48,576 nt of DNA from an uncultured bacterium (lineage in GTDB: Bacteria > Verrucomicrobiota > Kiritimatiellia > RFP12 > UBA3636). Each line of letters starts with the position of its first letter. Position 1 is the first letter of the stretch. The notes beneath the pieces were generated by a model. It searched no databases. It was given only the letters and a program-made list of their open reading frames with translations, and was not told where the DNA came from. The translations under genes were made by a program, and so were the position numbers. Below, one piece after another: positions 22,432-37,700 of this stretch. The DNA lies in assembly GCA_902761575.1 (NCBI GenBank), contig CACWKU010000008.1, forward strand, positions 1 through 48,576, in the 5' to 3' direction.

Positions 22432-24345
22432 ATGAAACCCTTCCTCCATTCGCCGCGTAGCGGCGCCCATCATTCGGCGCGAAGCGCCGCCCTCCATTCG
22501 GCGGCAACGCCGCCCTTCATTCGCGCCATAGGCGCGTCCTTCATTCGCGCCATAGGCGCGCCCTTCATTCGCGGCGTAGCCGCGCCCTTCATTCGCCGCG
22601 TAGCGGCGCTCTTCATTCTCTGCGCGGCCGCGCCCCGCGCGGCCGCGCAGTGCGCCGCGCAGGGCGTCACGCTCAAGCCCGGCTGGAACGCCGTCTACGT
22701 CGAGGTCTCGCCCGAGGCGGACGCCACCGCGGTCTTCGGGCCGTGGCCGGTCGACTCGGTCGGCGTCTACGACCCGGCCTCGTTCCTCGCCACGCGCCAG
22801 TTCTCGGCGGACGGCGGGTCGGACGGCCTCGTCTCGTCGCCCATCTTCATGTGGAACCGCGAGTACCCCGAGGCGACGTCCGTCACGCGCGTCCCCGCGG
22901 GCGTGGTCTGCCTCTGCTTCAACACGAACCTCGCGAGCGGGGCGGAGGGGACGTTCTCGACGAACCTCGTCGGCGTCCCCGCCGCGCCGCGCACGACGTG
23001 GCACCGCAGCGAGGGCGGCGAGGTGCTCAACTACTTCGGCTTCTCGGTGCGCCCCGGCGCGGCGGTCGCGCCCGGCGCCTACCTCGCCGGCTTCGGCGAC
23101 CTGGCGGGCGGCTCGCTGCTGCGCATCGGCGGCAAGCGGCGCGAGGACCCGCCCTCGCGCCTGCCGGTCTACTCGAACGACACGGTCTCGGACGGCGAGG
23201 TGCTGCTCGTCGGCGCGACGGCGCCCTCGGACTGGTCCGGCGCGCTGTACGTCTCGCCGATGGACGGCCTCGACTTCGGCACCAACGCGACGCTCCGCAC
23301 GCTCTCGGTCCGCAACGACGGCGGCGCGCCGCGCACGGTCTCGCTGAAGCTGGACCGCGCCGTCGCGGAGCTCGACGCCCGCCTGCCCTTCGGCCCGGCG
23401 CTGCTCGTCTGGCGCGACGCGGACGTCGCCCGCACGAACGCCGCGTGGAACGCGCTCGAGGGCTTCGGCGCGTTCGCCTCGAAGCGCCTCGCCGCCGGCG
23501 AGACGTGGCGCCTGCAGTTCGGCCTCGACCGCGCGAGCGTCCCCGCCGGGCTCGTGCAGGGCATTCCCTTCGGCGCGCTCCTCACGGCGCTCGACGACGA
23601 CGGCGGCTCGCAGATGAAGGCGACCGTCCCGCTGCGCGCGGAGACGAGCGGCGCGGACGCCGCGCGCACCGCCTGGCCCTCCGGGCTGTGGATCGCCGAC
23701 GTCGCGCTCGACACGGTGGACTTCGCCTCCGCCGAGAACCCCGCCCCCGCGGGCGGCGTCCTCAAGCTGCGCCTCCCGCTGCACGTCGACGCGGAGGGCA
23801 AGGTCCGGCTGCTGCAGCGCGTCGTCGCCGCGGGCGAGGCCGACGCCGCCGGCAACCTCGCCTACCGCCTCTACGCGGGCGAGGCCGAGCCGCCCGCCAC
23901 CGCGTCGCAGGCGCTGCGCATCTCCTCGGCCGTGCTGCCGACCGAGACGCCGGTCGTCGAGGCCTCGTTCGCCGACTTCTCGTCCGCGATCGGCATCGCG
24001 ACGTTCCAGTTCGAGGTGGCGGCGGACGGCGCCACGAGCCTCCTGCGCCACCCCTACCATCCGCAGCACGACGGCCTGCGCTGGGACTTCTCCACGCCGG
24101 CGCCATCCGGCGATTTCATCGACAACTACAAGGGCGAGGTAAAGCCCGAGACCTTCTCCGTGAAGAACACGCTCATGCTGTCGTTCGACTTCGGCGCGGG
24201 CGCCTCGCGCTGGGACCCGCAGGACGCCGTCTCCGGCTCCTGCTGGTGGAGATTCTCGGGCCTCCGCCGCGAAGGCGACCTCGTCGCCTCCGGCCCCCTC
24301 TCCCTGAAGCGCGTCTCCGCCCTCTCGGAAATCGTCCTCGAATAA
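22432..24345 (+). CDS. secreted hypothetical protein (637 aa) with hairpin-array leader
   Basis: It starts 14 nt after the serpin stop. The N-terminus is the translated repeat array and ends in RRVAALFILCAAAPRAAAQ. The mature part is unassigned and contains HPYHPQHDGLRWDF. Confidence 0.6.
   Translation: MKPFLHSPRSGAHHSARSAALHSAATPPFIRAIGASFIRAIGAPFIRGVAAPFIRRVAALFILCAAAPRAAAQCAAQGVTLKPGWNAVYVEVSPEADATAVFGPWPVDSVGVYDPASFLATRQFSADGGSDGLVSSPIFMWNREYPEATSVTRVPAGVVCLCFNTNLASGAEGTFSTNLVGVPAAPRTTWHRSEGGEVLNYFGFSVRPGAAVAPGAYLAGFGDLAGGSLLRIGGKRREDPPSRLPVYSNDTVSDGEVLLVGATAPSDWSGALYVSPMDGLDFGTNATLRTLSVRNDGGAPRTVSLKLDRAVAELDARLPFGPALLVWRDADVARTNAAWNALEGFGAFASKRLAAGETWRLQFGLDRASVPAGLVQGIPFGALLTALDDDGGSQMKATVPLRAETSGADAARTAWPSGLWIADVALDTVDFASAENPAPAGGVLKLRLPLHVDAEGKVRLLQRVVAAGEADAAGNLAYRLYAGEAEPPATASQALRISSAVLPTETPVVEASFADFSSAIGIATFQFEVAADGATSLLRHPYHPQHDGLRWDFSTPAPSGDFIDNYKGEVKPETFSVKNTLMLSFDFGAGASRWDPQDAVSGSCWWRFSGLRREGDLVASGPLSLKRVSALSEIVLE
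22441..22650 (+). repeat. mini-hairpin tandem array A1 (7-8 units of ~24 nt) plus 13-bp terminal hairpin
   Basis: Units are of the type CCTTCATTCGCGCCATAGGCGCG and CCTTCATTCGCCGCGTAGCGGCG. The terminal hairpin is CTGCGCGGCCGCG ccccg CGCGGCCGCGCAG at 22620-22650. Confidence 0.9.
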
Positions 24346-24389
24346 CCTCATTCAACCAACCAAACACCGAACCACCCAAACACCGAACC

Positions 24390-25475
24390 ATGAAAACCAC
24401 CATTCCTCATTGCCGCGAAGCGGACCGTCATTCGGCGGCGACACCGCCGCCCTTCATTTGCGGGGACGCCGCACCCTTCGTTCGCCGCGCAGCGGCGTTC
24501 GTCATTGCCGCGCTTGCGGCCTCGGCCGCAAGCGCGGCCGGCTTCCGCGCGGCGCCCGTCGCCGAATTCAAGGAAGGTGCCCTCTCCTTCGGACTCTCCG
24601 CCGGAACGACGTTCGTCGGCGGCGAGGCCCGCGAGCACGTCTTCCATCCGAAGGGGTATTTGTCCGACTATCTGGAGGAAATCCCCGGCGCGCCCGCGGA
24701 AGACCGCCGCCACCAGCTCTCCCGTCTCGACTGGGACATGGCCTCCGTCCTCGTGGGCGTCTCCGGATCCCTCCGCTACGACCGCCTCTCGCTCAACCTC
24801 GGCATCTGGTACGGCGGCAGCGGCTCCGACGACTACGACATGAAGGACTACGACTGGATGGCGGGCGACCACGTCCCCCATACCGAGTACTCCCGCTCCG
24901 ACACGGAGCTCACCGACGCCTGGCTGTTCGACGCCAACGTCTCCTTCGACTTCTGGCGCTCCGAGGGCTTCACGGGCTACGTCTTCGCCGGCGCGCGCGA
25001 GCAGCGCTGGAAGTGGACCTGCGACGGCCGCACCGACTACTGGTACACCGAGAACGGCCACGTCTGGGAGCACGAGGACGGCCACATCTGCGACTACCGC
25101 CAGGTCCTCTTCTTCGGCTACGTCGGCCTCGGCGGAAGCTGGAGGCTGACCGATTCGCTCGGCCTCTCCGCCTACGTCTCCTGGGGCCCAGGCTGGAAGG
25201 GACGCGACCGCGACAACCACATCGGCGCCGAAAAGGACACGCACGACTCGTTCGACTACGATTCCAACGTCTACGCCGCCGGCGTCTCGCTCGACTGGCA
25301 CGTCGCCGAGCGCGCGACCGTCTCCTTCGGCGTCGACTGGCAGAAGGCCACGCTCAACCAGGGGCTCCTCTCCCAATGGGAGTACGGCTCCGACGAGACC
25401 GAGGAGATGCCCGACTCCGCCGGCATGGAGAACGAGTACCTCTCCTTCACCGTCGGCCTCGACTACGCCTTCTAG
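24390..25475 (+). CDS. omptin-family outer-membrane protease (peptidase A26)
   Basis: It aligns by eye along its whole length to OmpT/Pla: SRLDWDM, KDYDWMAGD (the Asp-x-Asp catalytic pair), ICDYRQVLFFGYVGLGGSWR, RDRDNH (the Asp-x-His pair) and the C-terminal ENEYLSFTVGLDYAF. Confidence 0.85.
   Translation: MKTTIPHCREADRHSAATPPPFICGDAAPFVRRAAAFVIAALAASAASAAGFRAAPVAEFKEGALSFGLSAGTTFVGGEAREHVFHPKGYLSDYLEEIPGAPAEDRRHQLSRLDWDMASVLVGVSGSLRYDRLSLNLGIWYGGSGSDDYDMKDYDWMAGDHVPHTEYSRSDTELTDAWLFDANVSFDFWRSEGFTGYVFAGAREQRWKWTCDGRTDYWYTENGHVWEHEDGHICDYRQVLFFGYVGLGGSWRLTDSLGLSAYVSWGPGWKGRDRDNHIGAEKDTHDSFDYDSNVYAAGVSLDWHVAERATVSFGVDWQKATLNQGLLSQWEYGSDETEEMPDSAGMENEYLSFTVGLDYAF
24403..24538 (+). repeat. mini-hairpin tandem array A2 (~5 units) plus 15-bp terminal hairpin
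   Basis: Unit examples are TTCCTCATTGCCGCGAAGCGG and CCTTCGTTCGCCGCGCAGCGGCG. The terminal hairpin is GCCGCGCTTGCGGCC tc GGCCGCAAGCGCGGC at 24507-24538. Confidence 0.9.
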
Positions 25476-25483
25476 CACGCAAG

Positions 25484-25528
25484 TCCGGCGTGGCGCGGCG
25501 GGCGGCTCCGCCGCCGCCGCCCACGCCG
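25484..25528 (+). terminator. long imperfect GC hairpin after the omptin gene
   Basis: CCGGCGTGG...CCACGCCGG closes a ~45-nt stem-loop starting 9 nt after the stop. No U-tract. Confidence 0.35.
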
Positions 25529-25584
25529 GGCGTTGAACGGCCGCGCTCCGCGCGGCGCACCGCAGCCCCGGCAAACCGAACATC

Positions 25585-26355
25585 ATGCAGAAGCCCTCGC
25601 GCCGTTCCCGACTCCTCTGGGTTCTTCCGCCCGTCGCGTTTCTCGCGGCGTTGCTGCTCTGGTTCGTCGCCGAATGCGTCCGCGGAGCCGCGTTTCCCGA
25701 GCCGTGGAACGCCCCGGCGCATTCGCAGTGGATTTCGTTCCCCTTCGAGATTCTCGTGGCCGCTTCCGCCCTCGTGCTCGCCGGGGCGCCGTTCGTCGCG
25801 GCGATCAGCCGCCGAGGCGGCGCGGCAGCGCTTCTGTTTGCGAGCTGGATTCCGTGTTTCATCGCGTTCCTCTTCATCGGATTCATGTCGGGACGCGATT
25901 CCCAAAACCGCTGGGACCGCTTCGCGGACCGGCTCGAAATCCCGGAAGGCCTCGACGTCTCCGAACCCGTCGGAAAGAGCGAGGCGCCCGATATCGGTTT
26001 CGCCGCGCTGCCCGCGGATTCCGCGGATGCCGCCGCGCTGTGCCTTCGAGACTACGGGATGGGCTGCTACGCCGCCGCGATCTTCCTCCGGACGGCGGAG
26101 CCGGGTCGCATCCGCCTTCGCGCGGTCGAAGTCACGACCGGGCATTCCCTCTCGCCCTACGAGCTGGACGAGAAGACGTCGCGAGACCACGCCGGCGGCG
26201 ACGCCCGGTTCGACTGGCTCGAGTTCATCGTTGGCGAGGGCGACCTCGTCCACCCCTACGCAGCCCGCTTCGAAGTCTGTTTCCGCCCGGCCTCCGGCGG
26301 CCCCGAGCGCACAATCGGGTCGCGCGTCTACCGCATCGTCGGCTCGCAATTCTGA
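25585..26355 (+). CDS. hypothetical membrane protein (no hairpin leader)
   Basis: 256 aa with three or four N-terminal hydrophobic helices (LLWVLPPVAFLAALLLWFVA, ILVAASALVLAGAPFVAAI, LLFASWIPCFIAFLFIGFM) and a soluble C-terminal domain. No family recognised. Confidence 0.5.
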   Translation: MQKPSRRSRLLWVLPPVAFLAALLLWFVAECVRGAAFPEPWNAPAHSQWISFPFEILVAASALVLAGAPFVAAISRRGGAAALLFASWIPCFIAFLFIGFMSGRDSQNRWDRFADRLEIPEGLDVSEPVGKSEAPDIGFAALPADSADAAALCLRDYGMGCYAAAIFLRTAEPGRIRLRAVEVTTGHSLSPYELDEKTSRDHAGGDARFDWLEFIVGEGDLVHPYAARFEVCFRPASGGPERTIGSRVYRIVGSQF

Positions 26356-26397
26356 TCCCGTCCCCCCGTTTTCGAAAACTGACAAATCCCACCAACC

Positions 26398-28578
26398 TTG
26401 AACACGTCCGTCCTCCGTCATTGCCGCGAAGCGGCCCCGTCATTCGCGCCGCGCAGCGTCGCGATGTCATTGCGCCGCGCAGCGGCGCTCGTCATTGCCG
26501 CGCTTGCGGCCTCGGCCGCAAGCGCGGCCGCGCCGGTCACCCTCGCGCCGATGTTCCGCGACCACGCCGTTTTGCAACGGGACGTCCCCGTCCCGATCTG
26601 GGGAACGGCGGAGCCGGGGGCAAAGGTCGCGGTCCGACTCGTCCGTGCGGACGAGTCGGACGCGGAACCATGCGAAATGACGGCGACGGTCGGCGAGGAT
26701 GGACGCTGGCGCGTCGAGCTTCCGCCGCATCCCGCTGGCGGTCCTTACGAGCTCGGCGCAGCCGAGCTCCCCCATGCCCTCGGCGCCGCGTCCGCGCCGG
26801 ACGGCGCGGGCGCGCGCGCCGAGGACATCCTCATTGGCGATGTCTGGCTCTGCTCCGGCCAGTCGAACATGGACATGAACTACGGCTGGGGGCTCACGCG
26901 CGGGAAGGAGGACATCGAGACGAACGTGCACGCGAGGATCCGCCTCTTCGACGACCGCAACCGCACCGCGCTCTCGCCGCAGCGCGACCTGCCGGACGAC
27001 TACGGCTGGACGACCTGCGACCCCGCGCACGCAAAGTCCTTCTCCGCCGTCGGCTACTTCTTCGGGCAGGCGCTGCAGGAGGCGATGCCCGACGTCCCGA
27101 TCGGCCTCGTCGAGGCGTCCTGGTCCGGCTCGCCCATCAAGACCTGGATTCCCTACGAGGCCGCCGAGGCCCTCGGCGGCGATTTCGGCAAGCAGGCCGG
27201 CGAGCGCCGCGCCATCGCGGAGGCGTGGGAGAACGGCGGCGCCGAGCAGTTCAAGGTCGACCTCGCCGCGTGGATGGAAAAGCTGCCCGCAATCGACCCC
27301 GGCGACGCCCCCGCCGCGCCGGACTTCGACGATTCGGACTGGCAGACCGCCAACCTTCCCGAAATCACCGAGAAGCACACCAAGCCCGACTTCGACGGTT
27401 GGGTATGGTATCGCAGGACGTTCGTGATCGACGAAGAGGAGCATCCGGTCGTCGACACGGCCTCGCTTTCGCTCGGCCCCATCGACGACCAGGATTGGAC
27501 CTATGTCAATGGCGTTCTCGTCGGCACGACCAATGTGTGGGACGCACCTCGCGACTACAAGATTCCGGAAGGCGTCCTGCATTCCGGAACCAACACAATC
27601 GCGGTCAAGGTCCTCGACTGGGGCGGACACTCCGGATTCTGGAAGAACGCCCCCGCCGGCATGTCCGTATCGGTTTCGTTGGCGCAAGACGAAATCGTCA
27701 CCGAAGAATGCATCGTCGAAAGCAGTAGCACACGCACCATCCCCCTCGCCGGCGAATGGAAGTTCAAGGCGTTCCCGGCGGAGCCGCGGCCGGTGGACCC
27801 GTCGTCGCCGTCGTCGTGGGACATCGCCGCGTGCCACAACGGCATGGTGGCGCCGCTCTTCGGGATGGCGGCGAAGGGGGCGATCTGGTACCAGGGCTGC
27901 TCGGACGTCGGGCACGCGGACCTCTACGCGAAGCAGTTCCCGGCGATGGTCGGCGCGTGGCGCGAGGGCTTCGTGCACGACGACGCGGGCTTCCCGGTCT
28001 ACCTCGTGCAGCTCGCGGCGTTCAAGGAGGCGCACACGGAGCCGCTGGACTCCGCGTGGGCGCGGATGCGCTGGACGCAGATGCGGCTCGGCGAAACCGT
28101 CCCGCACTGCGGCACCGCCGTCGCGATCGACGTCGGCGACCACCGCGACATCCACCCCAAGGACAAGAAGACCGTCGGCGAGCGCCTCGCCGCTCTCGCG
28201 CTTGCGCAGACCTATGGTCGGGAAGGCCGGTCATTGAGCCCCGTGCCGTCGCAGGCGAGCTACGATTGGGCGGCGGGACACGTCATGATCCAATTCGTCG
28301 ACCCCGTATCCCTCAAGCCGGCGAAACTGCGAGAGGATTTCGACCTTCGCGGCTTCCAGGTTTTCATCGATGGCGGCGACTGGAAATGGGCGGAGAAGTC
28401 GTTCGTCAACGAAAAGATGTTCCCCGACACCGTGTTCGTGGACTGTCCCGGCGGAGTCCACACAAATGTTTGTGTCCGCTACGCGTGGGACGACTACCCC
28501 GACTGCAACCTCGTTTCCGCCGACGGCCTTCCCGTCGGCCCGTTCGAGCTGAAGGCGAAAATCCTCGATCTCAAATAG
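26398..28578 (+). CDS. sialate O-acetylesterase-like carbohydrate esterase with inserted galactose-binding-like domain
   Basis: The motif GDVWLCSGQSNM is typical of the 9-O-acetylesterase family. The segment DDSDWQTANLPE...WVWYRRTF is typical of a sugar-binding jelly roll. The track start is TTG. An in-frame ATG at 26464 would give MSLRRAAALVIAALAASAASA. Confidence 0.8.
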   Translation: MNTSVLRHCREAAPSFAPRSVAMSLRRAAALVIAALAASAASAAAPVTLAPMFRDHAVLQRDVPVPIWGTAEPGAKVAVRLVRADESDAEPCEMTATVGEDGRWRVELPPHPAGGPYELGAAELPHALGAASAPDGAGARAEDILIGDVWLCSGQSNMDMNYGWGLTRGKEDIETNVHARIRLFDDRNRTALSPQRDLPDDYGWTTCDPAHAKSFSAVGYFFGQALQEAMPDVPIGLVEASWSGSPIKTWIPYEAAEALGGDFGKQAGERRAIAEAWENGGAEQFKVDLAAWMEKLPAIDPGDAPAAPDFDDSDWQTANLPEITEKHTKPDFDGWVWYRRTFVIDEEEHPVVDTASLSLGPIDDQDWTYVNGVLVGTTNVWDAPRDYKIPEGVLHSGTNTIAVKVLDWGGHSGFWKNAPAGMSVSVSLAQDEIVTEECIVESSSTRTIPLAGEWKFKAFPAEPRPVDPSSPSSWDIAACHNGMVAPLFGMAAKGAIWYQGCSDVGHADLYAKQFPAMVGAWREGFVHDDAGFPVYLVQLAAFKEAHTEPLDSAWARMRWTQMRLGETVPHCGTAVAIDVGDHRDIHPKDKKTVGERLAALALAQTYGREGRSLSPVPSQASYDWAAGHVMIQFVDPVSLKPAKLREDFDLRGFQVFIDGGDWKWAEKSFVNEKMFPDTVFVDCPGGVHTNVCVRYAWDDYPDCNLVSADGLPVGPFELKAKILDLK
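26411..26528 (+). repeat. mini-hairpin tandem array A3 (~4 units) plus 15-bp terminal hairpin
   Basis: Its last 42 nt (26489-26530) are identical to 24499-24540, and it has the same terminal hairpin at 26497-26528. Confidence 0.9.
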
Positions 28579-29888: not shown

Positions 29889-29899
29889 CGCGGCCGCTC

Positions 29900-30026
29900 A
29901 TGATGAATGAAGGGTTCCACTGCGCGGAAAATGAAGGGTGCTTCGCAAATGAAGGGTGCGCCTGCGGCGCAAATGAAGGGTCCCGCTTCGCGGGAAATGA
30001 AGGGTGCGGCTGAGCCGCAAATGATG
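29900..30026 (-). repeat. reverse-complement mini-hairpin array (5-6 units) downstream of tail-collar gene 1
   Basis: AATGAAGGG + TGCGCC tgc GGCGCA / TCCCGC ttc GCGGGA / TGCGGC tga GCCGCA. It starts 12 nt after the stop at 29888. Confidence 0.9.
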
Positions 30027-30077
30027 CAGTCAAACAATCCACGCTTTGCAACCATGACACGTTTCTTCGTTGCTTGT

Positions 30078-31487
30078 ATGCATCGCATCCGCTCCTATCA
30101 TTCGCGCGGAGCGCGCCACCCATTTGCCGCGCATCGGCACCCTTCATTCGCGCCAGCGGAGTGTCCTCCATTCACGACGAAGGCGTGCCCTTCATTCGCG
30201 CCAGCGGAGTGCCCTCCATTCACGCCGAAGGCGTGCCCTTCATTCGCGACGCGCAGCGGCGCGCCCTTCATTTGCGGCGGAGCCGCACCCGTCATTCGCG
30301 GCGCAGCCGCGCTCGTCATTGCCGCGGCCGCGACAGCGGCCGCGAGCCCGGCGCCCGCGCCGTGGAGGCAGGCCGACTTCGCGGCCGACCTCTATCGCAA
30401 GGCGGCGTCGGTGCAGCCGGCGGACGAAAACGTCGTGCTGTCGCCGTGGGGCGTGGCGAACCTCTTCGCGCTGCTGCAGACCGGCGCGCGGGGGGACACC
30501 GCTCGCGGCATGGCCTTCGCGCTGCAGCTCGGCGGCGTCGAGCCGCCCGAGCCCGACGCCGTCGCCGCGACGTTCCGCGAGTCGCGCACGAACCTCGAAC
30601 GCGCCGCGAACGACGACGTCGCGCTCGAGCTCTCCGATTCGCTCTGGATCAAGCCCGGATTCGCCCTGTCCGAGAGCTTCCGCTCCCTTGCCCGCGACTC
30701 CTTCGACGCCGACGTCCGCCTCACCTGGATGGGCGCCAAGGGTCGCAAGGAGATCAACGCCTTCGTCGCCGAGAAGACCCACGACCGCATCAAGGACCTG
30801 ATCCAGCCGCCCGTCCTCGACGATCCGCTGACGCGCCTCGTCGCCGTCGACACGGTCTACCTCAAGGCCAAGTGGGAGATCCCCTTCGAGAAGGACGCCA
30901 CGCGCGACCGGACCTTCCACGCGCCGGGCGGCGACGTCGAGGTCCCGTTCCTCCACGACACGCGCCACGCGGAGATCCTCGACGCGCCCGAGTGCGCCGC
31001 GCTGCGGCTCCCGTACCGCTTCGGCTCGGCGGAGATGCTCGTGATCCTGCCGTCGCCCTCCAACACGCTCGCGGAGGTCGAGGCGAAGCTCTCCGGCCCG
31101 TGGCTCGACCGGCTCGCCGCCAAACCGTGGCGGGGCGAGGCCGTCCTCGCGCTCCCGAAGTTCGACTTCGGCAGCGAGCACGACCTGTCGAAGACGCTCC
31201 CGTACATGGGCATGGGCGCCGCGTTCGACCCCGCCCGCGCCGACTTCTCCGGCATCGCGCCGCAGCTCTACATCGGCACCGCCATCCAGAAGGCCAACGT
31301 CACGGTCGACGAAGCCGGCACCGAGGCCGCCGCCGCGACTTTCGCGGTCATGCTGGAAGGGTGCATCGGTCCGATGGAGAACGTTCCGCCCCCGCGCCCG
31401 TTCGTCGCCGACAGGCCGTTCCTCTTCATCATCCGCGAAACCCGCACCGGCCTGATCCTCTTCCTCGGCCGCGTCTGCAAGCCCTAG
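30078..31487 (+). CDS. serpin (inhibitory-type hinge), secreted, with long hairpin-array leader
   Basis: The start was chosen as MHRIRSYHS by analogy with neighbouring leaders; alternatives are 30054 and 29907. Motifs are LSPWGVANLFALL and VDTVYLKAKW. The hinge is DEAGTEAAAATFAV and the end is DRPFLFIIRE. Confidence 0.85.
   Translation: MHRIRSYHSRGARHPFAAHRHPSFAPAECPPFTTKACPSFAPAECPPFTPKACPSFATRSGAPFICGGAAPVIRGAAALVIAAAATAAASPAPAPWRQADFAADLYRKAASVQPADENVVLSPWGVANLFALLQTGARGDTARGMAFALQLGGVEPPEPDAVAATFRESRTNLERAANDDVALELSDSLWIKPGFALSESFRSLARDSFDADVRLTWMGAKGRKEINAFVAEKTHDRIKDLIQPPVLDDPLTRLVAVDTVYLKAKWEIPFEKDATRDRTFHAPGGDVEVPFLHDTRHAEILDAPECAALRLPYRFGSAEMLVILPSPSNTLAEVEAKLSGPWLDRLAAKPWRGEAVLALPKFDFGSEHDLSKTLPYMGMGAAFDPARADFSGIAPQLYIGTAIQKANVTVDEAGTEAAAATFAVMLEGCIGPMENVPPPRPFVADRPFLFIIRETRTGLILFLGRVCKP
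30093..30344 (+). repeat. mini-hairpin tandem array A5 (~10 units, includes a 48-nt higher-order repeat) plus 9-bp terminal hairpin
   Basis: CCTTCATTCGCGCCAGCGGAGTG(T)CCTCCATTCACG(A/C)CGAAGGCGTGC occurs twice. The terminal hairpin is CGCGGCCGC gaca GCGGCCGCG at 30323-30344. Confidence 0.9.
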
Positions 31488-31500
31488 GAGCGAAACTCGT

Positions 31501-34254
31501 ATGAGAACACAAGCAAGAACAACACGTCCCTGCCGCGCAGCGGCCGGCCATTCGGCGGCAATGCCGCCGCCCTTCATTCGCCGCGCAGCGGCGCCCTTCA
31601 TTTGCGGCGGAGCCGCACCCTTCATTCGCCGCGCAGCGGCGCTCGTCATTCTCGCGACGCTGACCGTTTCGGCCCACGCCGAAACGGTCAGCATCGCGAG
31701 CGCCGCCGACTGGGCGGCGTTCGCGGAGCGCGTGAACGCGGGCGAAACGGACCTCTGCGCGGAGATGACCGCCGACGTGACGCTCGGGAACGACGCGCCG
31801 CGCGTCGGAAGTTCGAACTACTTCGGGGGAACCTTCGACGGTCAGGGGCACGCGCTCACGGTCGCGTTCGAGGAGACGGGCGGCTCGGGTTCCGATCGCG
31901 ACCCTCCCTGCGCCCCCTTCGCCTACGTGTGCGGGGCGAGCATCCGGAACCTGCACGTCACCGGAACCATCGCCTCCAACGGCCGTTACGCGGCCGGTTT
32001 CTGCGGTTTCGTGGCCGCCCTGAACGGGACGACCTCGCTTTCGAACTGCCGCTCGTCCGTCTGCGTCGAATGCCGTGTCGACGGCGACGCCACGTCCGCC
32101 GGATTCGTCGGCGCCGTCAAGACGCCCGGCACGCTCCAGATGTCCGACTGCGTCTTCGACGGTTCGATTTGTTCCGGGAGGGGCGTCACGGCCCATTCCT
32201 GCGGCGGGTTCGTCGGCTGGCGCGACGCTTCCGCCTCGGTCTATCTGGGGAGATGCCTGTTCGCTCCGGCGAAGACCAGGGTGGGGACCGACGGAAACGC
32301 CTCGACCTTCGTGCGCGACAACGGCGCCGACGGCCGGAACATCGACGCCTGCCACTATCTCCAGACGCTCGGCGCGGCGCAGGGCGCGAACGCCTCCGCG
32401 ACGTCCGCGGAGGACCTCGCCGCCGCGCTGGGAAGCGACTGGACCGTCGCGGACGGCAAGGTCGTTCTCGCGTCCTTCCCCGGTTCGGTCGAGGTCTACG
32501 ATCCCGATTGGGTCGAGATCTCCTCCGCCGCCGACTGGACCGAGTTCGCCGAATTGGTGAACGCGGGCGAAACGTACCTCTGCGCGAAGATGACCGCCGA
32601 CGTGGCGCTCGGGAACGACGCGCCGCGCGTCGGCACGACGGAGGCCACCGCCTGGACGGGCGAGTTCGACGGCGGCGGACACACGCTCACGGTGGACTGG
32701 ACGTTCACGAAGACGGAATTCGCCGCCCCGTTCGCGATCGTCTCCGGATGCTTCGTCCACGACCTGCACGTCGCCGGATCGATCTCCTCCGACACCAACT
32801 ACGTCGCCGGGTTCGCCGGCTGGGCGAAGCCCGGGGCCCGGTATCCCACGTTCGAACGCTGCCGGTCCTCCGTTGCCCTCACGTGCACGAAGTCCGGCGA
32901 GGTGTGCTGCGGCGGCTTCGTGGGCTACACGTTCTGGGCGGTCTACAACGTCTGCTTCCGGGACTGCCTGTTCGACGGCTCCCTTCTCGGACCGAACGCC
33001 GAACGGTGCGGCGGGTTCGCCGCAAGCCCCTTCGTCGACGCCAACATCGATCTGCACAACTGCCTCTTCGACCCCGCTCAGGTCACGGTTTCGAGCTCAA
33101 TGTCGGGGACCCTCGTGGGCACCCCCTACTCCAGCCACACCTGGGTCGACACGTGCTACTACACCCGGGTCCTCGGCGCGAAGCAGGGCACGGACGCCTC
33201 CGCGATGTCCGAGGAGGACCTCGCCGCCGCGCTCGGCGAGAACTGGATCGTCGCGAGCGGAAAGGTCCTCCCGAAGACGTTCGTCGAGGTCGGCCATCCC
33301 GAGAATGCCGTGGCGGGGTTCGTCTACCAGGGCGCGCTGCGCGACGCGCAGGGGTTCGCGCTCGCGGAGAAGCGCCGGACGGTCGAGATCCGCCTCTACG
33401 CGCAGGCCGCGGGCGGCACCTCGCTCTGGGGCCGGAAGCACGACGTGCTGCTCGACGACGCCGGGCTCTTCCTCGTCCAGCTCTCGGACGACGCCGGCAC
33501 GCCGGTCGACGGCGACCCGGGGACGCCGCTCGCGGACGTCCTCGCGCGGAACGCCGGCGTCCCGCTCTTCGCCGGAGTGACGGTGGCGGGGGCCGGCGCG
33601 GAGATCTCGCCGCGCCAGAAGCTCCTCCCCGCGCCGTTCGCGCTCCTCGCGTCGGATGCCTCCGCCGCGCGCGGCGACTTCGCCGTCGCGGGCGCCCTCT
33701 CCGCGGAGGGGCTGGTCGTCTCGGACGAGCTCGCCGCCCCGTCCGCGCAGATCTCCGGCGCGGCCACCGCCGGGACGCTCGGAACCGCCGGCGGCGTGCG
33801 CGCGGACGGCAACCTGTCGGTCGCGGGCGAGCTCGCGGGCTACGGCACGATCCCCGTCGGCGGCATCGTCGCGTGGAACGGCGCGGAGTCCGCCATCCCG
33901 AACGGCTGGGCGCTCTGCAACGGCCAGACCGCCAACGGGCGCAAGACCCCCGACCTGCGCAACCGCTTCGTCGTCGCCGCGGGCGGGCAGTACAAGGCCG
34001 GCGACACGGGCGGCGAGGACAAGCACAAGCTGACGGTCTCCGAGCTGCCGCCGCACTCGCACACCTACGACTTCAAGGGCGCGGACTTCGACCTCGCGTG
34101 GGACGACGACAACTACATCTACGACGCCTCCGAGCACTACAAGGACAGGCCCCAGAACGCCAACCAGAGGTCCACCAACGCGGCCGGCGGCGACCAGCCG
34201 CACGAGAACCGCCCGCCGTACTACGCGCTTTGCTACATCATGCGCGTCCGCTAG
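31501..34254 (+). CDS. secreted protein: two Cys-rich GLUG-like modules + tail-fibre-like module + phage tail collar domain
   Basis: It starts 13 nt after the serpin stop. Two ~270-aa repeats begin SAADWAAFAERVNAGETDLCAEMTADVTLGNDAPRVG and SAADWTEFAELVNAGETYLCAKMTADVALGNDAPRVG. The C-terminal ~320 aa is paralogous to 28794..29888 and ends identically in HENRPPYYALCYIMRVR. Confidence 0.8.
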   Translation: MRTQARTTRPCRAAAGHSAAMPPPFIRRAAAPFICGGAAPFIRRAAALVILATLTVSAHAETVSIASAADWAAFAERVNAGETDLCAEMTADVTLGNDAPRVGSSNYFGGTFDGQGHALTVAFEETGGSGSDRDPPCAPFAYVCGASIRNLHVTGTIASNGRYAAGFCGFVAALNGTTSLSNCRSSVCVECRVDGDATSAGFVGAVKTPGTLQMSDCVFDGSICSGRGVTAHSCGGFVGWRDASASVYLGRCLFAPAKTRVGTDGNASTFVRDNGADGRNIDACHYLQTLGAAQGANASATSAEDLAAALGSDWTVADGKVVLASFPGSVEVYDPDWVEISSAADWTEFAELVNAGETYLCAKMTADVALGNDAPRVGTTEATAWTGEFDGGGHTLTVDWTFTKTEFAAPFAIVSGCFVHDLHVAGSISSDTNYVAGFAGWAKPGARYPTFERCRSSVALTCTKSGEVCCGGFVGYTFWAVYNVCFRDCLFDGSLLGPNAERCGGFAASPFVDANIDLHNCLFDPAQVTVSSSMSGTLVGTPYSSHTWVDTCYYTRVLGAKQGTDASAMSEEDLAAALGENWIVASGKVLPKTFVEVGHPENAVAGFVYQGALRDAQGFALAEKRRTVEIRLYAQAAGGTSLWGRKHDVLLDDAGLFLVQLSDDAGTPVDGDPGTPLADVLARNAGVPLFAGVTVAGAGAEISPRQKLLPAPFALLASDASAARGDFAVAGALSAEGLVVSDELAAPSAQISGAATAGTLGTAGGVRADGNLSVAGELAGYGTIPVGGIVAWNGAESAIPNGWALCNGQTANGRKTPDLRNRFVVAAGGQYKAGDTGGEDKHKLTVSELPPHSHTYDFKGADFDLAWDDDNYIYDASEHYKDRPQNANQRSTNAAGGDQPHENRPPYYALCYIMRVR
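31526..31700 (+). repeat. mini-hairpin tandem array A6 (~5 units) plus 22-bp terminal hairpin
   Basis: The terminal structure is CTCGCGA c GCTGACCGTTTCGGC ccac GCCGAAACGGTCAGC a TCGCGAG at 31651-31700. That is 15 perfect bp plus 7 more after one mismatch. Confidence 0.9.
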
Positions 34255-34265
34255 CGCGGCCGCGC

Positions 34266-34396
34266 ATGATGAACGAAGGGTGCTTCGCAAATGAAGGGTG
34301 CTTCGCAAATGGAGGGTGCCGCTCCGCGGCAAATGAAGAGTGCGCCTGCGACGCAAATGAAGAGGACTTCGCGAATGAAGGGCGCGTTTCGCGCGA
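34266..34396 (-). repeat. reverse-complement mini-hairpin array (~6 units) downstream of tail-collar gene 2
   Basis: AATGAAGGG/AATGGAGGG/AATGAAGAG spacers alternate with TGCCGC tcc GCGGCA and similar stems. It starts 12 nt after the stop at 34254, in the same junction sequence as at 29888. Confidence 0.9.
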
Positions 34397-34415
34397 ACGG
34401 AAAGAATCGACCGAC

Positions 34416-34781
34416 ATGAAACCGGAAGACGATCCACTGAAAGAGAAGAGCATGGCGTTCGCCGTGTGCGCGGTGAAGCTCGCGAGGTGGCTGCGCGAGG
34501 AGAAAAAGGAGTTCTCCCTCGCCGACCAGATTCTGCGGAGCGGAACCAGCATCGGCGCGAATCTGGCGGAAGCCCGCCACGCCGCGTCGCGCAAGGACTT
34601 TCTCGCGAAGTGCAAGATCTCGCTCAAAGAGTGTTCCGAAACCCTCTTCTGGATCGAACTGCTCGAACGCTCGGACCTTCTTTCCCGCGACCAGGCGAAG
34701 CCCCTTGCTTCCGATTGCAACGACATCCGCCGCCTTCTCGCGGCTTCTTGTAAAACTCTCGAACGGAATCTCCAGCCATGA
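34416..34781 (+). CDS. four-helix-bundle protein (23S rRNA intervening-sequence protein / Avd-like family)
   Basis: 121 aa, MKPEDDPLKEKSMAFAVCAVKLARWL...ADQILRSGTSIGANLAEARHAASRKDFLAKCKISLKECSETLFWIELL. This is the characteristic GANIAEG/SxxDF/ExxYWL pattern. GC is visibly lower than in the neighbours. Its stop overlaps the next ATG (ATGA). Confidence 0.85.
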   Translation: MKPEDDPLKEKSMAFAVCAVKLARWLREEKKEFSLADQILRSGTSIGANLAEARHAASRKDFLAKCKISLKECSETLFWIELLERSDLLSRDQAKPLASDCNDIRRLLAASCKTLERNLQP

Positions 34782-37700
34782 AACTGTCCGACCTGTTCCA
34801 TTCGCCGCGCAGCGGCGCCCTTCATTCGGCGCGGAGCGCCGCCCTTCATTCGGCGGCAACGCCGCCGCCCTTCATTCGCCGCGCAGCGGCGCTCTTCATC
34901 GCGTTGACGGCCGCGACGGCGAGCGAAGCCGCGGATGCCGGATTTACGCTCGGCGTGCCTTCGGCTCCGACCTTGCGGCTGAGCTCCGACGCGGCCGCCA
35001 ACGCCTGGCTTTCGTCCAACGCGCTCTATCCCGCGATGGCGGTCGTGGCGCCGGGCTGGGACGTCGCGACCAACGCCGCGTCGTCCCTGCAGTCCGTCGC
35101 GGGCGAGGAGACCGTGAAGCTCGCCGCCGCCGAGGCCGGCTTCGCGATCGAGCGCACCAAGCCCGAGTACTACCTCGGCGACCTGGTCTCCCCGCCGCCG
35201 CGCGTCGACTGGACCGCCACCTACGAGCGCTTCGTCCGGGACGGCACGGTGGGCTTCCTCTTCGACGCCGCCGGCCAGCGCGTCTACGCCACGCTCGGCG
35301 GAACGGTCCGGTTCACGTGGGTCCTCGAGAACGGCAGCGCGGTCGACATGACCTACGTCGTCTCGTCCTGCTGCTCCGGCCGCCCGCGCCGCATCTACTG
35401 GACGGACCACCCCTACAACGGCCCGCCGATCGACCTGAGCGGCAAGTTCGTGAAGTTCTACGGCCCCGACGAGCTCGTGAAGCCGGCCTACGGCGTCTAC
35501 ACGAACGAGACCGCCGGCATGACCCAGGTCCTCACGAACCGCGTCGTCTCCGGCCTCTACAACGACCCGTCGACCAAGATGCTCTACGCCTACGGCGAGC
35601 TGCAGGGGCAGGTCGTGATGGCCTACTACGACACAGGCACCTTCGAGCGCCTCCTGCACGTGCAGACGGTCGAGATCTGCCGCCCCGTCGTGAACGCGAT
35701 GACGGGCGAGATCGGCCGCCAGCTCAAGCCCGACGGCCGCGGCTACCCGACCGCCGGCCTCCGCGCGCGCCCCACCGTCGTCCAGCCCACGGACGACCGC
35801 GGCGACTACCTCTACCAGCACAAAGGCAAGCATTCCTACAGCCCGAAGAACGGCGCCGTCTTCCCGCTGCGCCCCACCGTCGGCAGCCGCTGGAACGCGG
35901 AGGTGTACTGGATGGAGACCGACGAGATGCTCGTCCAGTGGCCGTTCGAGCTCGACCAGTACGAGTGCGACTGGCCGAAGGACGCCACCGTGTTCGTCCG
36001 CGGCGACCAGGGCGGCGACACGGGCCGCCCGATCTACGTCCCCGACTCCTTCACGCCGACGCTGATGGGCTACCAGGACCCCGAGGGCCACGCCCGCGCC
36101 GTGGAGTCCGACGGCACGTTCCGGACGACCGACGAGGGCTGGTCGCTCCTGAAGCTCGCGGTCGACGACGACGTCTGGTTCGTCCCGCTCCATTCGATCC
36201 TGCGCTCCAACCCCGAGTACTTCACGCTCGAGGAGCAGACGGTCGCCGTCGGCTCCGAGCTGCGCCTCCGCGGCGGCTCGGTCGCCGGCACGGCGGGGAC
36301 GTTCTCGCCCTCCTGCGACCCCGACAGCCCCGGCTACGTCTATCCGCCCGTCTCGGGCGACCACTTCAACCACCGCCTCTACCGCGAGCCGCAGTCGTCC
36401 GCATCCGCGCAGACGAACCAGACCTCGTCCGCCTCCTCCGAGGGCTCCGACACCAACACGTACGCCTCGGTGGTCTACGCGGTCAACGTCGCGGAGAAGC
36501 CGATCGAGGTCTGGTGGAACACGACGATCAAGGAGGAGGGGATGCCCGCCGCGGTCGAGATTCCGACGCTCCCGCAGGTCTACCGCGCGCGCTGGCCGGA
36601 GCTCTGGGAGACGCCTCAGATCGTCATCGCCTCGCAGCAGGGCAGCGCCGCCGAGTCGGTCTATTCGCAGAACCGCGGCCTCTACCTCGACGCGACGAAC
36701 TCCACGGCCATGCTCGCCTCCCGCGCCTATTTCTCCGCCGAAAGCGGGATGGTGCAGCTCTGGATCCGGCCCGACGGCCTCGCGACGGACGACGCCGGCC
36801 GCGCCGTCCTCTCGCTCCACGGCCAGGGCGGGACGAATCTCGTCCTCGACCTGCGCCCGGACCCCGCCGCGGGCGCGACGAACCTCGTCCTTTCGCTGGA
36901 CGGCTCCGGCTCGGTCTCCGTTCCCTTCGAATACCTCCCCGACTTCGGCCTCTGGGTCCCCGTCCAGATCGAGATCGCGCCGGGCGCCGTCGCGCTCCGC
37001 GCCGGCTTCCTCGAGGAGGCCTCCCTCGACGGCGACGCCACGCCGCTGCTCGGCGACGTGGTCGGCGCCGCGCTCGGCGCCTCCGCCGGCGTCGGGGCGC
37101 GCGCCGGCGCCACGGTCGCCGAGATCCTCTTCCGCGCGAAGGCGATCGACGCCGCCGACGCCTTCACCGATGCGTTCGCCGTCCACGAGGGGCGCGAGGT
37201 CGGCCTCACGGGCTGCTACTCGTTCCGCGACACGGACCTGCAGATCGTCCCGGGCTCCGCCGTCCGCGTCTTCACCGACAAGGCGCTCGGCTCGCGCCAC
37301 CGCGCCCTCCGCTGCCTCTCCGAGTCCGACGGTCCGCCGCTCTTCGGCGCGGGCGTGGTCGTCTCCGACGCCGGCACGACGCCGGTCGTCTACGCGCAGA
37401 ACGACCCGGAAGAGCCCGGCTACAACCCGAACGAGGAGCACGGCATCGTGACCGCCGGCTCCGGCGGGCACGTCGCGTGGGCGCTGCGCTCCGACCTCAA
37501 CTCGGACACGTCCTCCGCGCCCGGCGTCCTCGTCGAATACGTCTCGGACGGCCGCAAGGCGATGCGCTGGTTCTCCGTCGCCGTCACCAACTCCCTCTGG
37601 CCCGAACTCGCCGCGCCCTGCACCGCCGGCCTCGCGCTCCCGGGCCCGCACCCGCTCGACACGTTCGACAACCCGTGGAAGAAGGAGACCTACTGGGACG

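What the first reader, a model, noticed from the sequence alone, without database searches (positions are those of the whole stretch)
22441..34902. Tandem mini-hairpin arrays embedded in the 5' ends of seven consecutive secreted-protein genes
Seven + strand genes carry the arrays, with starts at 22432, 24390, 26398, 28794, 30078, 31501 and 34778. Each opens with a few codons and then 4-10 tandem copies of a ~24-nt unit. The consensus is CCCTTCATTCG-CCGCGCAGCGGCG: a constant CCYTCATT spacer plus a 5-6 bp GC stem with a 3-nt loop. Stems differ between units but stay complementary: CGCCGC/GCGGCG, CGCGCC/GGCGCG, CGCGGC/GCCGCG, GGCGC/GCGCC, CGCCAC/GTGGCG and CACGCC/GGCGTG. That is covariation preserving pairing. 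The same unit is translated in all three frames, as LHSPRSGA, PFIRRAAA or PSFAAKR. The frame even changes inside one ORF, because some units are 23-26 nt long. So the conserved entity is nucleic acid, not a peptide motif. Even so, every ORF stays open. In 6 of 7 genes no canonical start codon lies between the array and the hydrophobic signal-peptide core. The arrays are therefore probably translated as roughly 30-80 aa basic N-terminal extensions. The one gene in this run without an array (25585..26355) is also the only one preceded by a terminator-like hairpin. I do not recognise this as a described element. One possible role is a structured 5' coding region that slows initiation or elongation to couple translation to Sec/SRP targeting. 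Another is a shared post-transcriptional regulon tag. A third is a recombination substrate that spreads a leader/signal cassette.
Basis: partly seen in the sequence, partly recalled or inferred. Interest (0 to 1): 0.88.

Follow-up and report, generated by a model that had tools for sequence, protein, structure and literature searches.

The report
Translated mini-hairpin repeat arrays in leaders
A family of tiny hairpin-forming DNA repeats, found only in some ruminant-gut Kiritimatiellae, sits in tandem arrays inside the starts of secreted-protein genes and is probably translated in whichever frame it lands; it looks like tolerated selfish repeat DNA rather than a secretion device.

Summary
Seven + strand genes carry 3-10 tandem ~24-nt units: a 9-nt core CC(C/G)TCATT plus a 5-7 bp GC hairpin with a C-GNA-G loop. 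Stem covariation is strong, and the ORFs run through the arrays from an upstream ATG.

- Two arrays of the same unit lie in reverse orientation in intergenic DNA (29899-30028, 34265-34382).
- A long perfect palindrome follows most arrays and itself encodes the signal-peptide hydrophobic core.
- In related genomes the same units sit in frame inside carA and purF.
- The orthologous serpin carries at least six different leaders in close relatives, one of them array-free.

The arrays are therefore not a Sec/SRP-coupling element. They are best read as a lineage-specific repeat of the REP/BIME, RPE or MIRU kind. It has no sense-strand stop codons, so it survives in permissive coding positions, above all in cleaved leaders, and it spreads and shuffles as cassettes. 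No Pfam, NCBIfam or Rfam family matches.

Verdict: a new variant of a known kind. Any function beyond tolerated repeat DNA is unproven. Interest is moderate to high.

The parts
22442..22632 (+). g1 leader array. The ATG is at 22432. Eight units of 24, 24, 23, 24, 24, 24, 24 and 24 nt, read first as LHSPRSGA-type and then as PFIRxxAA-type peptide.
22618..22652 (+). 15-bp palindrome that encodes the g1 hydrophobic core (LFILCAAAPRAAAQ)
24400..24497 (+). g2 (omptin) leader array. The ATG is at 24390. Head unit, a 26-nt unit and two 24-nt units.
24507..24538 (+). 15-bp palindrome that encodes the g2 hydrophobic core. It is identical to the one in g3.
   Evidence: (I6)
26414..26487 (+). g3 (SASA esterase) leader array. 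The TTG start is at 26398. An internal in-frame ATG lies at 26464.
26497..26528 (+). 15-bp palindrome that encodes the g3 hydrophobic core
28810..28879 (+). g4 (tail-collar protein) leader array. The ATG is at 28794. Body units are read as PSFAAKRR.
28896..28933 (+). 17-bp palindrome that encodes the g4 hydrophobic core
29870..29905 (+). Hairpin (14 of 16 pairs) at the 3' end of g4, with the stop codon TAG in its loop. On the unit strand it is the terminal palindrome of the reversed array.
29899..30028 (-). Reverse-orientation array of 5-6 units (18 and 24 nt) in the g4-g5 spacer.
30094..30311 (+). g5 (serpin) leader array of about 10 units. ATGs lie at 30054 and 30078.
30323..30344 (+). 9-bp palindrome in the g5 hydrophobic core. 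It is weak and within the background range.
31532..31641 (+). g6 (tail-collar protein) leader array. The ATG is at 31501. Head hairpin, a 26-nt unit and three 24-nt units.
31651..31700 (+). 22-bp palindrome that encodes the g6 hydrophobic core and cleavage region. Three compensated double substitutions separate it from the L019 orthologue.
34234..34273 (+). Hairpin (16 of 18 pairs) at the 3' end of g6, with the stop codon in its loop
34265..34382 (-). Reverse-orientation array of 6 units between g6 and the four-helix-bundle gene.
34416..34781 (+). PF05635 (23S rRNA-IVS / four-helix-bundle) gene, flanked by the reversed and the forward array. Its TGA overlaps the ATG of g7 (ATGA).
34797..34891 (+). 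g7 (2907-aa protein) leader array. The ATG is at 34778. Units of 24, 24, 26 and 24 nt.

Best explanation
The arrays are copies of a small repetitive DNA element specific to a lineage of ruminant-gut Kiritimatiellae.

Anatomy:
- One unit (18-28 nt, usually 24) is a conserved 9-nt core CC(C/G)TCATT followed by a GC-rich mini-hairpin. Its stem varies, but the two arms always match, and its loop is G-N-A closed by C-G.
- Units stand head to tail, and an array usually ends in a long perfect palindrome.

Why it sits in coding sequence:
- In the sense orientation the unit has no stop codon in any frame, and all three frames give Pro/Ala/Arg-rich peptide.
- Arrays can therefore lie inside ORFs wherever extra disordered, basic sequence does no harm.
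- The main such place is between the start codon and the hydrophobic core of a signal peptide, where the extension is cut off with the leader. In relatives, interdomain linkers of carA and purF also carry arrays.
- In this window the arrays add 30-86 aa, net charge +2 to +8, to seven leaders.
- The terminal palindrome supplies the Ala/Leu-rich hydrophobic core in five of the seven (g1-g4, g6).

Likely dynamics:
- Arrays grow and shrink by slippage.
- Hairpin arms stay complementary through a DNA-level process, either template switching within the palindrome or selection for hairpin-dependent propagation.
- Whole leader cassettes (5'UTR, start codon, array, palindrome) are exchanged between genes and strains by recombination.
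- The arrays are not needed for export.

Shown here: the anatomy, the covariation, ORF continuity, the distribution and the turnover. Inferred: actual translation, the propagation mechanism, and near-neutrality.
For: Nucleic-acid-level hairpin:
- Covariation: 96% of cells paired, and 68 double-sided changes against 23 expected, 0/500 shuffles.
- In 54 objectively defined units there are 308 Watson-Crick cells, only 4 G.T and 4 A.C. There is therefore no wobble excess of the kind expected for an RNA-only constraint.
- Loops are G-N-A in 42 of 54 units. This matches the GCGNAGC DNA mini-hairpin, which is far more stable as DNA than as RNA (PMC13037366; PMC3201870).

Both orientations:
- Two reversed arrays lie in the window.
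- In 12 non-redundant places a reversed array directly follows the stop codon of a tail-collar gene.

Inside ORFs:
- In 19 of 20 single-ATG leaders, from 9 different genes, the ATG is in the frame of the downstream gene. That frame was set independently from GC3.
- TAG-containing loops occur only in unused frames.
- Indels between orthologues are multiples of 3.
- ATGA overlaps with the upstream gene occur at g7 and its L022 orthologue, and at the L019 serpin.

Not specific to secretion:
- In-frame arrays at orthologous sites in carA (L061, L096, L113, L104) and purF (L061, L075, L096).
- A 138-nt module (46 codons) is 95% identical between carA and purF, with sharp ends.

Dispensable and fast-evolving:
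- The serpin orthologue has at least six different leaders, one of them a plain signal peptide in a 94%-identical gene.
- The g4 orthologue carries a (TCACTCG)n repeat in its leader instead.
- GH9, the first serpin and the gene at 18432 have ordinary signal peptides.

Composite architecture:
- Palindromes of 15 bp or more follow the arrays of g1-g4 and g6. The background chance is about 0.001 per 92 nt. Array-free signal peptides have none.

Lineage restriction:
- Of 185,579 species genomes, only about 8 Kiritimatiellae/'Verrucomicrobia' MAGs from ruminants carry the element.

Known families:
- No Pfam, NCBIfam or Rfam family matches.
Against: - Arrays are retained at orthologous positions across species that are 75-94% identical. 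That could mean selection rather than neutrality.
- Every array found inside an ORF is in the sense orientation, although two of the three antisense frames are also open. This hints at a strand-specific constraint.
- G and A of the loop are at least 90% conserved while the middle base varies. This looks like purifying selection on a single-stranded fold.
- Leader positions dominate the sample: at least 12 genes, against 2 internal sites.
- The long palindromes show compensated substitutions at the cost of amino-acid changes.
- No transposase or other propagation enzyme was identified.
- Translation itself was not observed.
Confidence: 0.55

Rival explanations
1. The arrays plus the palindrome are a functional structured segment of the mRNA at the 5' end of the coding region. 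It would tune initiation or elongation, protect the transcript from nucleases or direct its processing within the operon, or couple translation to export.
For: - The leader RNAs fold far better than shuffles (z = -5.6 and -5.4).
- Hairpins begin only 4-45 nt after the ATG, which sits in an A/C-rich leader with little predicted pairing.
- Arrays are retained in orthologues.
- Loop G and A are conserved.
- All intragenic arrays are in the sense orientation.
Against: - The same units sit in the middle of carA and purF and, in antisense orientation, in spacers.
- A near-identical serpin works with a plain signal peptide.
- There is no G.U excess over A.C.
- GNA triloops are much weaker in RNA than in DNA.
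- In L074 the array follows the hydrophobic core.
- Unit number varies from 2 to 10 between orthologues.
Confidence: 0.15
2. The arrays are hypermutable contingency or shuffling loci. Slippage and recombination in the leader would switch or retune expression of surface and secreted proteins, as the CTCTT repeats do in the leader-peptide region of Neisseria opa.
For: - The tandem repeats lie in the leader-coding region, as in opa (PMC3960869).
- Leaders of the same gene differ widely between strains.
- The g4 orthologue in L059 has a 7-nt repeat, whose copy number would set the frame.
- One g6 orthologue (L148) is out of frame after a 46-nt deletion of the palindrome.
- The carriers are exported proteins: serpins, an omptin, tail-collar proteins and a giant 2907-aa protein.
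Against: - Most units are 24 nt, so copy-number change keeps the frame.
- The off-size units (22, 23, 26, 28 nt) are single and compensate one another, for example 22 + 26 = 48.
- Arrays also occur in carA and purF.
- The L148 deletion may be an assembly artefact.
Confidence: 0.13
3. The conserved core is a binding site for a protein, possibly the adjacent PF05635 four-helix-bundle protein. The inverted arrays would then be the ends of a mobile, IVS-like cassette or the operators of a regulon.
For: - The core is the most conserved part of the unit: C3, C6, T8 and T9 are invariant. It persists in a more distant MAG of 60% GC (L067), whose hairpins are much reduced.
- A PF05635 gene lies between a reversed and a forward array in the window and L067, follows a reversed array in L023, L142, L143 and L147 (L022 shows only the gene-to-g7 junction), and sits between the tail-collar gene and the serpin in L019 but not in the window.
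- Reversed and forward arrays flank start codons repeatedly: g5, and L074 twice.
Against: - Five of the seven forward arrays have no PF05635 gene or reversed partner nearby.
- Arrays inside carA and purF are hard to explain as operators.
- No binding or mobility was tested.
Confidence: 0.1
4. The leader is a protein-level N-terminal extension or sorting tag, comparable to the ESPR of autotransporters.
For: - The 26-nt unit is always read in the same frame, as HSAATPPPF, in leaders of at least 8 genes.
- The head reads (I/L)R(P/H)CREAA.
- All leaders are basic.
Against: - Body units are read in three frames: PFIRRAAA, PSFAAKRR and LHSPRSGA.
- Conservation is at the nucleotide level and includes the reverse orientation.
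- No Pfam or NCBIfam model matches, even at E <= 10.
- Orthologues lack the motif.
Confidence: 0.07

Closest known systems
REP / BIME elements (repetitive extragenic palindromes, bacterial interspersed mosaic elements)
   Same: - Short GC-rich hairpin units with compensatory stem variation.
- High copy number within one lineage.
- Both orientations occur.
- Units combine with other short motifs into mosaics, for example the SHAESAENAE module plus an array in carA and purF.
- Frequent location between genes of an operon.
   Different: - The units here are 24 nt, not about 35-40.
- They stand in direct tandem, not in alternating orientation.
- They carry a conserved 9-nt core, not a 5' GTAG.
- Most lie inside ORFs.
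- No RAYT transposase has been linked to them.
Rickettsia palindromic elements (RPE)
   Same: - Selfish palindromic repeats inserted in frame into unrelated housekeeping genes and translated (PMC10969869).
- The 138-nt, 46-codon module in carA and purF behaves in the same way.
   Different: - RPEs are single elements of about 150 bp with one conserved peptide frame.
- The elements here are tandem arrays of 24-nt hairpins read in three frames, concentrated in signal-peptide leaders, and in a different phylum.
Mycobacterial interspersed repetitive units (MIRU)
   Same: - Short tandem repeats that sit at start codons within operons and keep an ORF running, so expression of the host gene is preserved (PMC12548453).
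- Copy number varies between strains.
   Different: - MIRUs are 40-100 bp, are not hairpins, and carry their own small ORF coupled at -4 nt.
- Here the array is fused into the host ORF downstream of its ATG.
Coding tandem repeats of Borg elements and opa-type leader repeats
   Same: - Fast-evolving tandem repeats inside ORFs that add disordered peptide (PMC9879509).
- Repeats in the leader-peptide coding region, as in opa CTCTT (PMC3960869).
   Different: - Borg repeats are perfect, recent and not palindromic.
- The opa repeats are 5 nt and work by frameshifting, whereas most units here keep the frame.
GCGNAGC DNA mini-hairpin motif
   Same: The loop and its closing pair (C-GNA-G) in most units match this extraordinarily stable DNA hairpin (PMC13037366; PMC3201870). 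The 18-nt units contain GCGAAGC itself.
   Different: This is a structural motif, not a genetic element. Known natural examples are single sites at phage origins and promoters, not chromosomal arrays.

Membership tests
REP/BIME | Imperfect GC-rich palindrome that forms a stem-loop, with compensatory variation | tested here: met
   96% of cells paired and 68 double-sided changes
REP/BIME | Extragenic location | tested here: not met
   Seven of the nine window arrays, and all carA and purF arrays, lie inside ORFs
REP/BIME | Conserved 5' GTAG and a cognate RAYT (Y1 transposase) | tested here: inconclusive
   The flank is CC(C/G)TCATT, not GTAG. No RAYT was searched for, and none lies among the window genes that were scanned.
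REP/BIME | Clusters with alternating orientation | tested here: not met
   Units stand in direct tandem. Only whole arrays occur as inverted pairs.
Rickettsia palindromic elements | In-frame insertion into unrelated protein-coding genes | tested here: met
   carA, purF and at least 12 leader regions
Rickettsia palindromic elements | Discrete palindromic element of about 100-150 bp that encodes one conserved peptide | tested here: not met
   The arrays vary in length, are made of 24-nt units, and are read in three frames
MIRU | Tandem units of 40-100 bp at intergenic or start-codon positions in operons, each with its own ORF coupled at -4 nt | tested here: not met
   Units are 18-28 nt and are fused into the host ORF. 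The ATGA overlaps seen here join PF05635 to the next gene, not a repeat ORF to its host.
Phase-variable leader repeats (opa type) | Repeats in the leader-peptide coding region | tested here: met
Phase-variable leader repeats (opa type) | Unit length is not a multiple of 3, so copy number sets the frame | tested here: not met
   Most units are 24 nt. The feature is met only by the 7-nt repeat in the L059 g4 orthologue.
Known N-terminal sorting signals (ESPR, Tat and others, in Pfam/NCBIfam) | Match to a curated HMM in one consistent frame | tested here: not met
   No NCBIfam model near its cut-off even at E <= 10. Pfam shows only the mature domains.
Rfam RNA families | Match to a covariance model | tested here: not met
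   None overlaps an array at E <= 1
CRISPR array | Constant repeat of 23 nt or more, alternating with unique non-palindromic spacers | tested here: not met
   The constant part is 9 nt. The variable part is a 15-nt palindrome drawn from about 10 recurring stems.
GCGNAGC DNA mini-hairpin | G-N-A triloop closed by a C-G pair on a GC stem | tested here: met
   42 of 54 units. Motif definition from PMC13037366. Actual folding could not be tested with these tools.

The most novel reading that the evidence does not exclude
The array plus its terminal palindrome is a portable 'leader-making' element. It would be a hairpin-dependent mobile or recombining cassette whose units encode Arg-rich n-regions and whose palindrome encodes an Ala/Leu-rich hydrophobic core. 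Landing at the 5' end of a gene would then create or replace an export signal, and with it the 5'UTR and start codon. The secretome of this lineage would be rewired by a selfish DNA repeat, perhaps with help from the neighbouring PF05635 four-helix-bundle protein.
Probability: 0.15. Interest if true: 0.85.

Novelty: new variant of a known kind. Interest (0 to 1): 0.6.

Why it matters
If this reading is right, a bacterial repeat family can live inside coding sequence by being stop-free and harmless in every sense frame. The cleaved signal-peptide leader would be its preferred refuge. Palindromic DNA can also double as the hydrophobic core of a signal peptide.

Practical consequences:
- Gene callers and signal-peptide predictors will probably mis-handle these proteins, because the extensions run to 30-86 aa.
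- Assemblies seem to break at the arrays, since many array-bearing contigs are short.
- Leaders of otherwise near-identical genes are not comparable.

The element also adds a high-GC, free-living gut lineage to a short list of cases in which selfish repeats are translated (Rickettsia RPEs, MIRUs, Borg repeats). It offers a natural system for asking how much N-terminal extension Sec export tolerates. A regulatory role is not excluded and would raise the interest.

Tried and rejected
- Known protein families: Pfam and NCBIfam on the leaders gave nothing.
- Rfam: no family on any array.
- Word-indexed protein search with a leader: only four orthologues of g6 and g7, so it gave no census of carrier proteins.
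- First JGI metagenome scan with a two-unit pattern: no hits. A second pattern worked.
- First genome-wide pattern: mostly chance hits and unrelated TCATT repeats, for example L018, L052, L069, L071, L079 and L123.
- Intrinsic terminators: several units score as terminator-like because of the CCCTTCATTT tail, but the count (15) is not clearly above shuffles (10.3 +/- 3.0), and the tails are poor in U. Rejected as the main role.
- Tat signal: the RR of PFIRRAAA follows a hydrophobic residue, and no Tat model hit. Rejected.
- Diversity-generating retroelement (tail-fibre-like target, Avd-like PF05635 gene, 3' hairpin): no reverse transcriptase was found among the window genes scanned, and no template/variable repeat pair. 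g4 and g6 are ordinary paralogues. Not pursued.
- uORF coupling through the reversed array: the TGA/ATG overlap at 34416 is not conserved in L019. Judged coincidental.
- MFE folding pairs different units with one another rather than forming local hairpins. The fold of a whole array is therefore ambiguous and was not used as evidence for single hairpins.

Full report
**Setting.** The window has 71% G+C and is chromosomal. It carries purL, a GH9 enzyme, purB, and trkA/trkH among other genes. From about 18.3 to 43.5 kb lies a co-directional run of exported-protein genes:
- a serpin (real start near 21212);
- g1 (22432, no Pfam match);
- g2, an omptin (24390);
- a membrane protein without an array (25585);
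- g3, a SASA esterase (26398);
- g4, a tail-collar/Gp10_C protein (28794);
- g5, a serpin (30054);
- g6, a tail-collar protein (31501);
- a PF05635 four-helix-bundle gene (34416-34781);
- g7, a 2907-aa protein (34778).

- TRF finds period-24 arrays at five of the seven starts; the short g2 and g3 arrays fall below its threshold. The core is about five-fold over-represented (39 against 7.2).
- I parsed the units, built a 24-position covariance model and searched the whole window without filters. All 40 hits with E <= 0.02 fall in nine arrays.
Two more are arrays of the same unit on the minus strand: 29899-30028 (between g4 and g5) and 34265-34382 (between g6 and the four-helix gene).
- Outside the arrays, only generic GC hairpins give weak partial matches.

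**The hairpin is real and covaries.**
- On 47 distinct 24-nt units from the window and relatives, 96% of stem cells pair. There are 68 double-sided changes against 23 expected, 0 of 500 shuffles reach this, and slid registers pair only 19-56%.
- With 13 array-flank sequences left in, the signal persists.
- The outermost pair alternates C-G (24) and T-A (21). The fourth pair alternates C-G (23) and G-C (23).
- In an independently defined set of 54 units there are 308 Watson-Crick cells, only 4 G.T and 4 A.C. Wobble pairs are therefore no commoner than the mismatch that would be a wobble on the other strand.
- Loops are G-N-A in 42 of 54 units, closed by C-G. The G and A are at least 90% conserved while N varies.
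- This is the GCGNAGC mini-hairpin, which is extraordinarily stable as DNA and much less so as RNA (PMC13037366; PMC3201870).
- The caveat is that units are paralogues, so many 'events' are inherited copies. About 10 stem types recur.

**The arrays lie within the ORFs.**
- The claim that every ORF stays open is weak by itself, because most arrays have no stop in any sense frame (consensus frames).
- Stronger evidence comes from 29 extra metagenomic loci and eight related MAGs. I fixed the frame of each downstream gene from GC3 at 90-690 nt past the array, then looked upstream.
- Of 20 non-redundant leaders with exactly one ATG in the preceding 100 nt, 19 have it in the gene's frame. These leaders come from nine different genes.
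- This holds although units of 22, 23, 26, 27 and 28 nt shift the frame inside the arrays. The off-size units compensate each other (22 + 26 = 48), and differences between orthologues are multiples of three.
- Loops containing TAG occur only in unused frames.
- The ATGs sit in A/C-rich leaders.
- In three cases the ATG overlaps the stop of the upstream gene as ATGA. That spacing is associated with tight translational coupling (PMC10666635).
- The single exception, L148, has lost 46 nt of the g6 palindrome. This is either a real deletion or an assembly artefact.
- Translation itself remains an inference.

1. A long palindrome starts 8-15 nt after the last unit in g1, g2, g3, g4 and g6. It has 15, 15, 15, 17 and 22 pairs respectively. 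A stem of 15 or more pairs occurs in about 0.1% of random 92-nt windows. It encodes the hydrophobic core and cleavage region.
   - Array-free signal peptides (GH9, first serpin, L059 serpin) have nothing of the kind.
   - Between the window and L019, the g6 palindrome differs by three fully compensated double substitutions, which change the peptide from LATLTVSAHAETVSIA to IAMATASAQAETVAIA.
2. On the unit strand, the reversed arrays also end in a long palindrome. This is the hairpin that holds the stop codon of the tail-collar genes in its loop. In 12 non-redundant places a reversed array directly follows ...HENRPP(Y/F)YALCYIMRVR*. The repeating module is therefore 'array plus terminal palindrome', in either orientation.
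3. Leaders have a conserved head: hairpin GCCGCGAAGCGGC, then the 26-nt unit CGGCGGCAACGCCGCCG. This head, together with the 5'UTR and start codon, is shared between different genes (D13).

**The arrays are not specific to export.**
- In RUG13889, five-unit arrays of the same units lie in frame inside a purF-like gene and inside carA, between its two domains.
- The inserted module is 138 nt (46 codons), 95% identical between the two genes, with sharp ends.
- The carA array recurs at the same site in RGIG3813 and RGIG1497. The purF array recurs in SRR8387717_bin.9 and RGIG3813.
- In L074 an array follows the hydrophobic core instead of preceding it.
- The window's purL also carries an in-frame insert of about 200 aa made of other short tandem repeats.

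**The arrays are dispensable and turn over fast.**
- Mature serpin g5 is 94% identical in L059. There its leader is a plain MRKTSAVLTAIATLTFCSNGVKA, the spacer holds different repeats, and the junction falls at the cleavage region.
- Across relatives, the same serpin has at least six unrelated leaders with 0, 2, 3, 4, 9 or 10 units.
- The g4 orthologue in L059 has (TCACTCG)n in its leader instead, again followed by a 16-bp palindrome.
- The g6 orthologues share their last three units and palindrome but have three different heads.

**Distribution.**
- Three pattern scans of 185,579 species genomes found the element only in about eight MAGs labelled Kiritimatiellae, Verrucomicrobia or 'uncultured bacterium'. 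Where a host is named, it is a ruminant.
- Other hits are unrelated TCATT repeats.
- No Pfam, NCBIfam or Rfam family matches.
- Four literature searches on repeats and hairpins found no description of this element.

**Interpretation.**
- The data fit a lineage-specific small repeat of the REP/BIME, RPE or MIRU kind. It is tolerated in coding DNA because it is stop-free and encodes innocuous basic, Pro/Ala-rich peptide in all sense frames. The window's leader extensions are 30-86 aa with net charge +2 to +8.
- A cleaved signal-peptide leader is the most permissive place. Recombination between arrays spreads whole leader cassettes.
- Three features point to a DNA-level constraint or a templated repair of the palindrome rather than an RNA function: strict Watson-Crick pairing without wobble excess, the DNA-type GNA loop, and the reverse copies.
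- I put this reading at 0.55.
- The main reasons for doubt are retention in orthologues, the exclusive sense orientation inside ORFs, and conservation of the loop G and A.
- A structural mRNA role (0.15), a contingency or shuffling role (0.13), a protein-binding or IVS-like cassette role (0.10) and a peptide tag (0.07) remain possible.

**Comparison with known elements.**
- The element works like an RPE (in-frame selfish palindromes; PMC10969869) and like MIRUs (repeats that settle at start codons while preserving translation; PMC12548453).
- It looks like a REP/BIME (hairpin units, mosaics).
- It fails defining features of each: size, tandem direct arrangement, three-frame reading, intragenic location, and no GTAG or RAYT link.
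- It resembles opa leader repeats only in position (PMC3960869).
- I therefore class it as a new variant of a known kind.

Noticed in passing
window 3000-3620 (- strand, inside purL ORF 1025-5623): purL is 1532 aa long. Between its AIRS_C and PurM_N-like domains it carries an in-frame insert of about 200 aa built from other short tandem repeats: CGGTCACA x4.6, GAATGCT x4.7 (read as [11 protein letters not shown]), CGTCTGG and GACCGTGT. The same [10 protein letters not shown] repeat sits in carA of RUG13889 (L061).
   Followed up: partly
window 43996-44078: About 12 copies of the 7-nt repeat CGAGTGA (TCACTCG on the gene strand) fill the spacer between an aminotransferase gene and the ATG of a ybaK-like gene. 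The same heptamer repeat lies inside the leader ORF of the g4 orthologue in L059, where its copy number would set the reading frame.
   Followed up: partly
window 5433-5492, 9188-9268, 11059-11125: Further short tandem repeats lie in spacers: GGTTGAAAA x6.8 between purL and GH9; GGTTCGAA x5 next to AACCTTGG x4.4; and GGATGGTCC x6.9. Spacers in relatives hold yet other families, for example AATCCTG-type repeats in L059 3990-4240. The lineage seems generally rich in such repeats.
   Followed up: no
window 34416-34781; L019, L022, L023, L067, L142, L143, L147: A PF05635 (23S rRNA-IVS / Avd-like four-helix-bundle) gene sits between a reversed and a forward array in the window and L067. It follows a reversed array in L023, L142, L143 and L147. 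Its stop codon overlaps the next gene's ATG (ATGA) in the window, L022 and L019. In L019 it lies between the tail-collar gene and the serpin, whereas the window has no such gene there.
   Followed up: partly
window 29870-29905 and 34234-34273: The stop codon (TAG) of both tail-collar genes lies in the 4-nt loop of a 14-16-bp hairpin. The last 300 nt of g4 and g6 are 86% identical, against 72-74% further upstream. This suggests gene conversion of the 3' end together with the reversed array.
   Followed up: partly
window 29907-30054: Each unit of the reversed array contains an ATG (AAATGAAGGG). That frame is open and continuous with g5, in the window and also in L023. An ORF from 29907 would therefore add about 50 more residues to the serpin leader. 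The agreement is probably due to shared descent, but it was not tested.
   Followed up: no
L061 1816-1953 and 3093-3230 (RUG13889): A 138-nt composite module (TCTCACGCAGAGAGCGCAGAGAACGC... plus five hairpin units) is 95% identical in purF and carA and has sharp boundaries. No target-site duplication was evident.
   Followed up: partly
L148 200-225: The g6 orthologue lacks 46 nt that span the leader palindrome, between short GAC repeats. This puts the upstream ATG out of frame. It may be a real hairpin-mediated deletion or an assembly artefact.
   Followed up: partly
L067 850-1250: In a Kiritimatiellae MAG of 60% GC, the reversed array after the tail-collar gene has more than 20 units of 17-19 nt. 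The CCCTTCATT core is intact but the hairpins are much reduced (TGC-GCA-GCA, or TGCC-CT-GGCA).
   Followed up: no
window 20807-22417: The 536-aa ORF listed for the first serpin is over-extended. An ordinary signal peptide (MKRPFRHAFLLLAFAPLLAARA) starts at about 21212, and the serpin domain begins at residue 170 of the long ORF.
   Followed up: partly
L018 2700-3500 (MAG labelled beta proteobacterium): An unrelated 24-nt tandem repeat (CCTTCATTCGTCATCGCCGCCAAT type, no hairpin) forms two arrays next to other repeats. It was picked up only because it shares the TCATTCG string.
   Followed up: no
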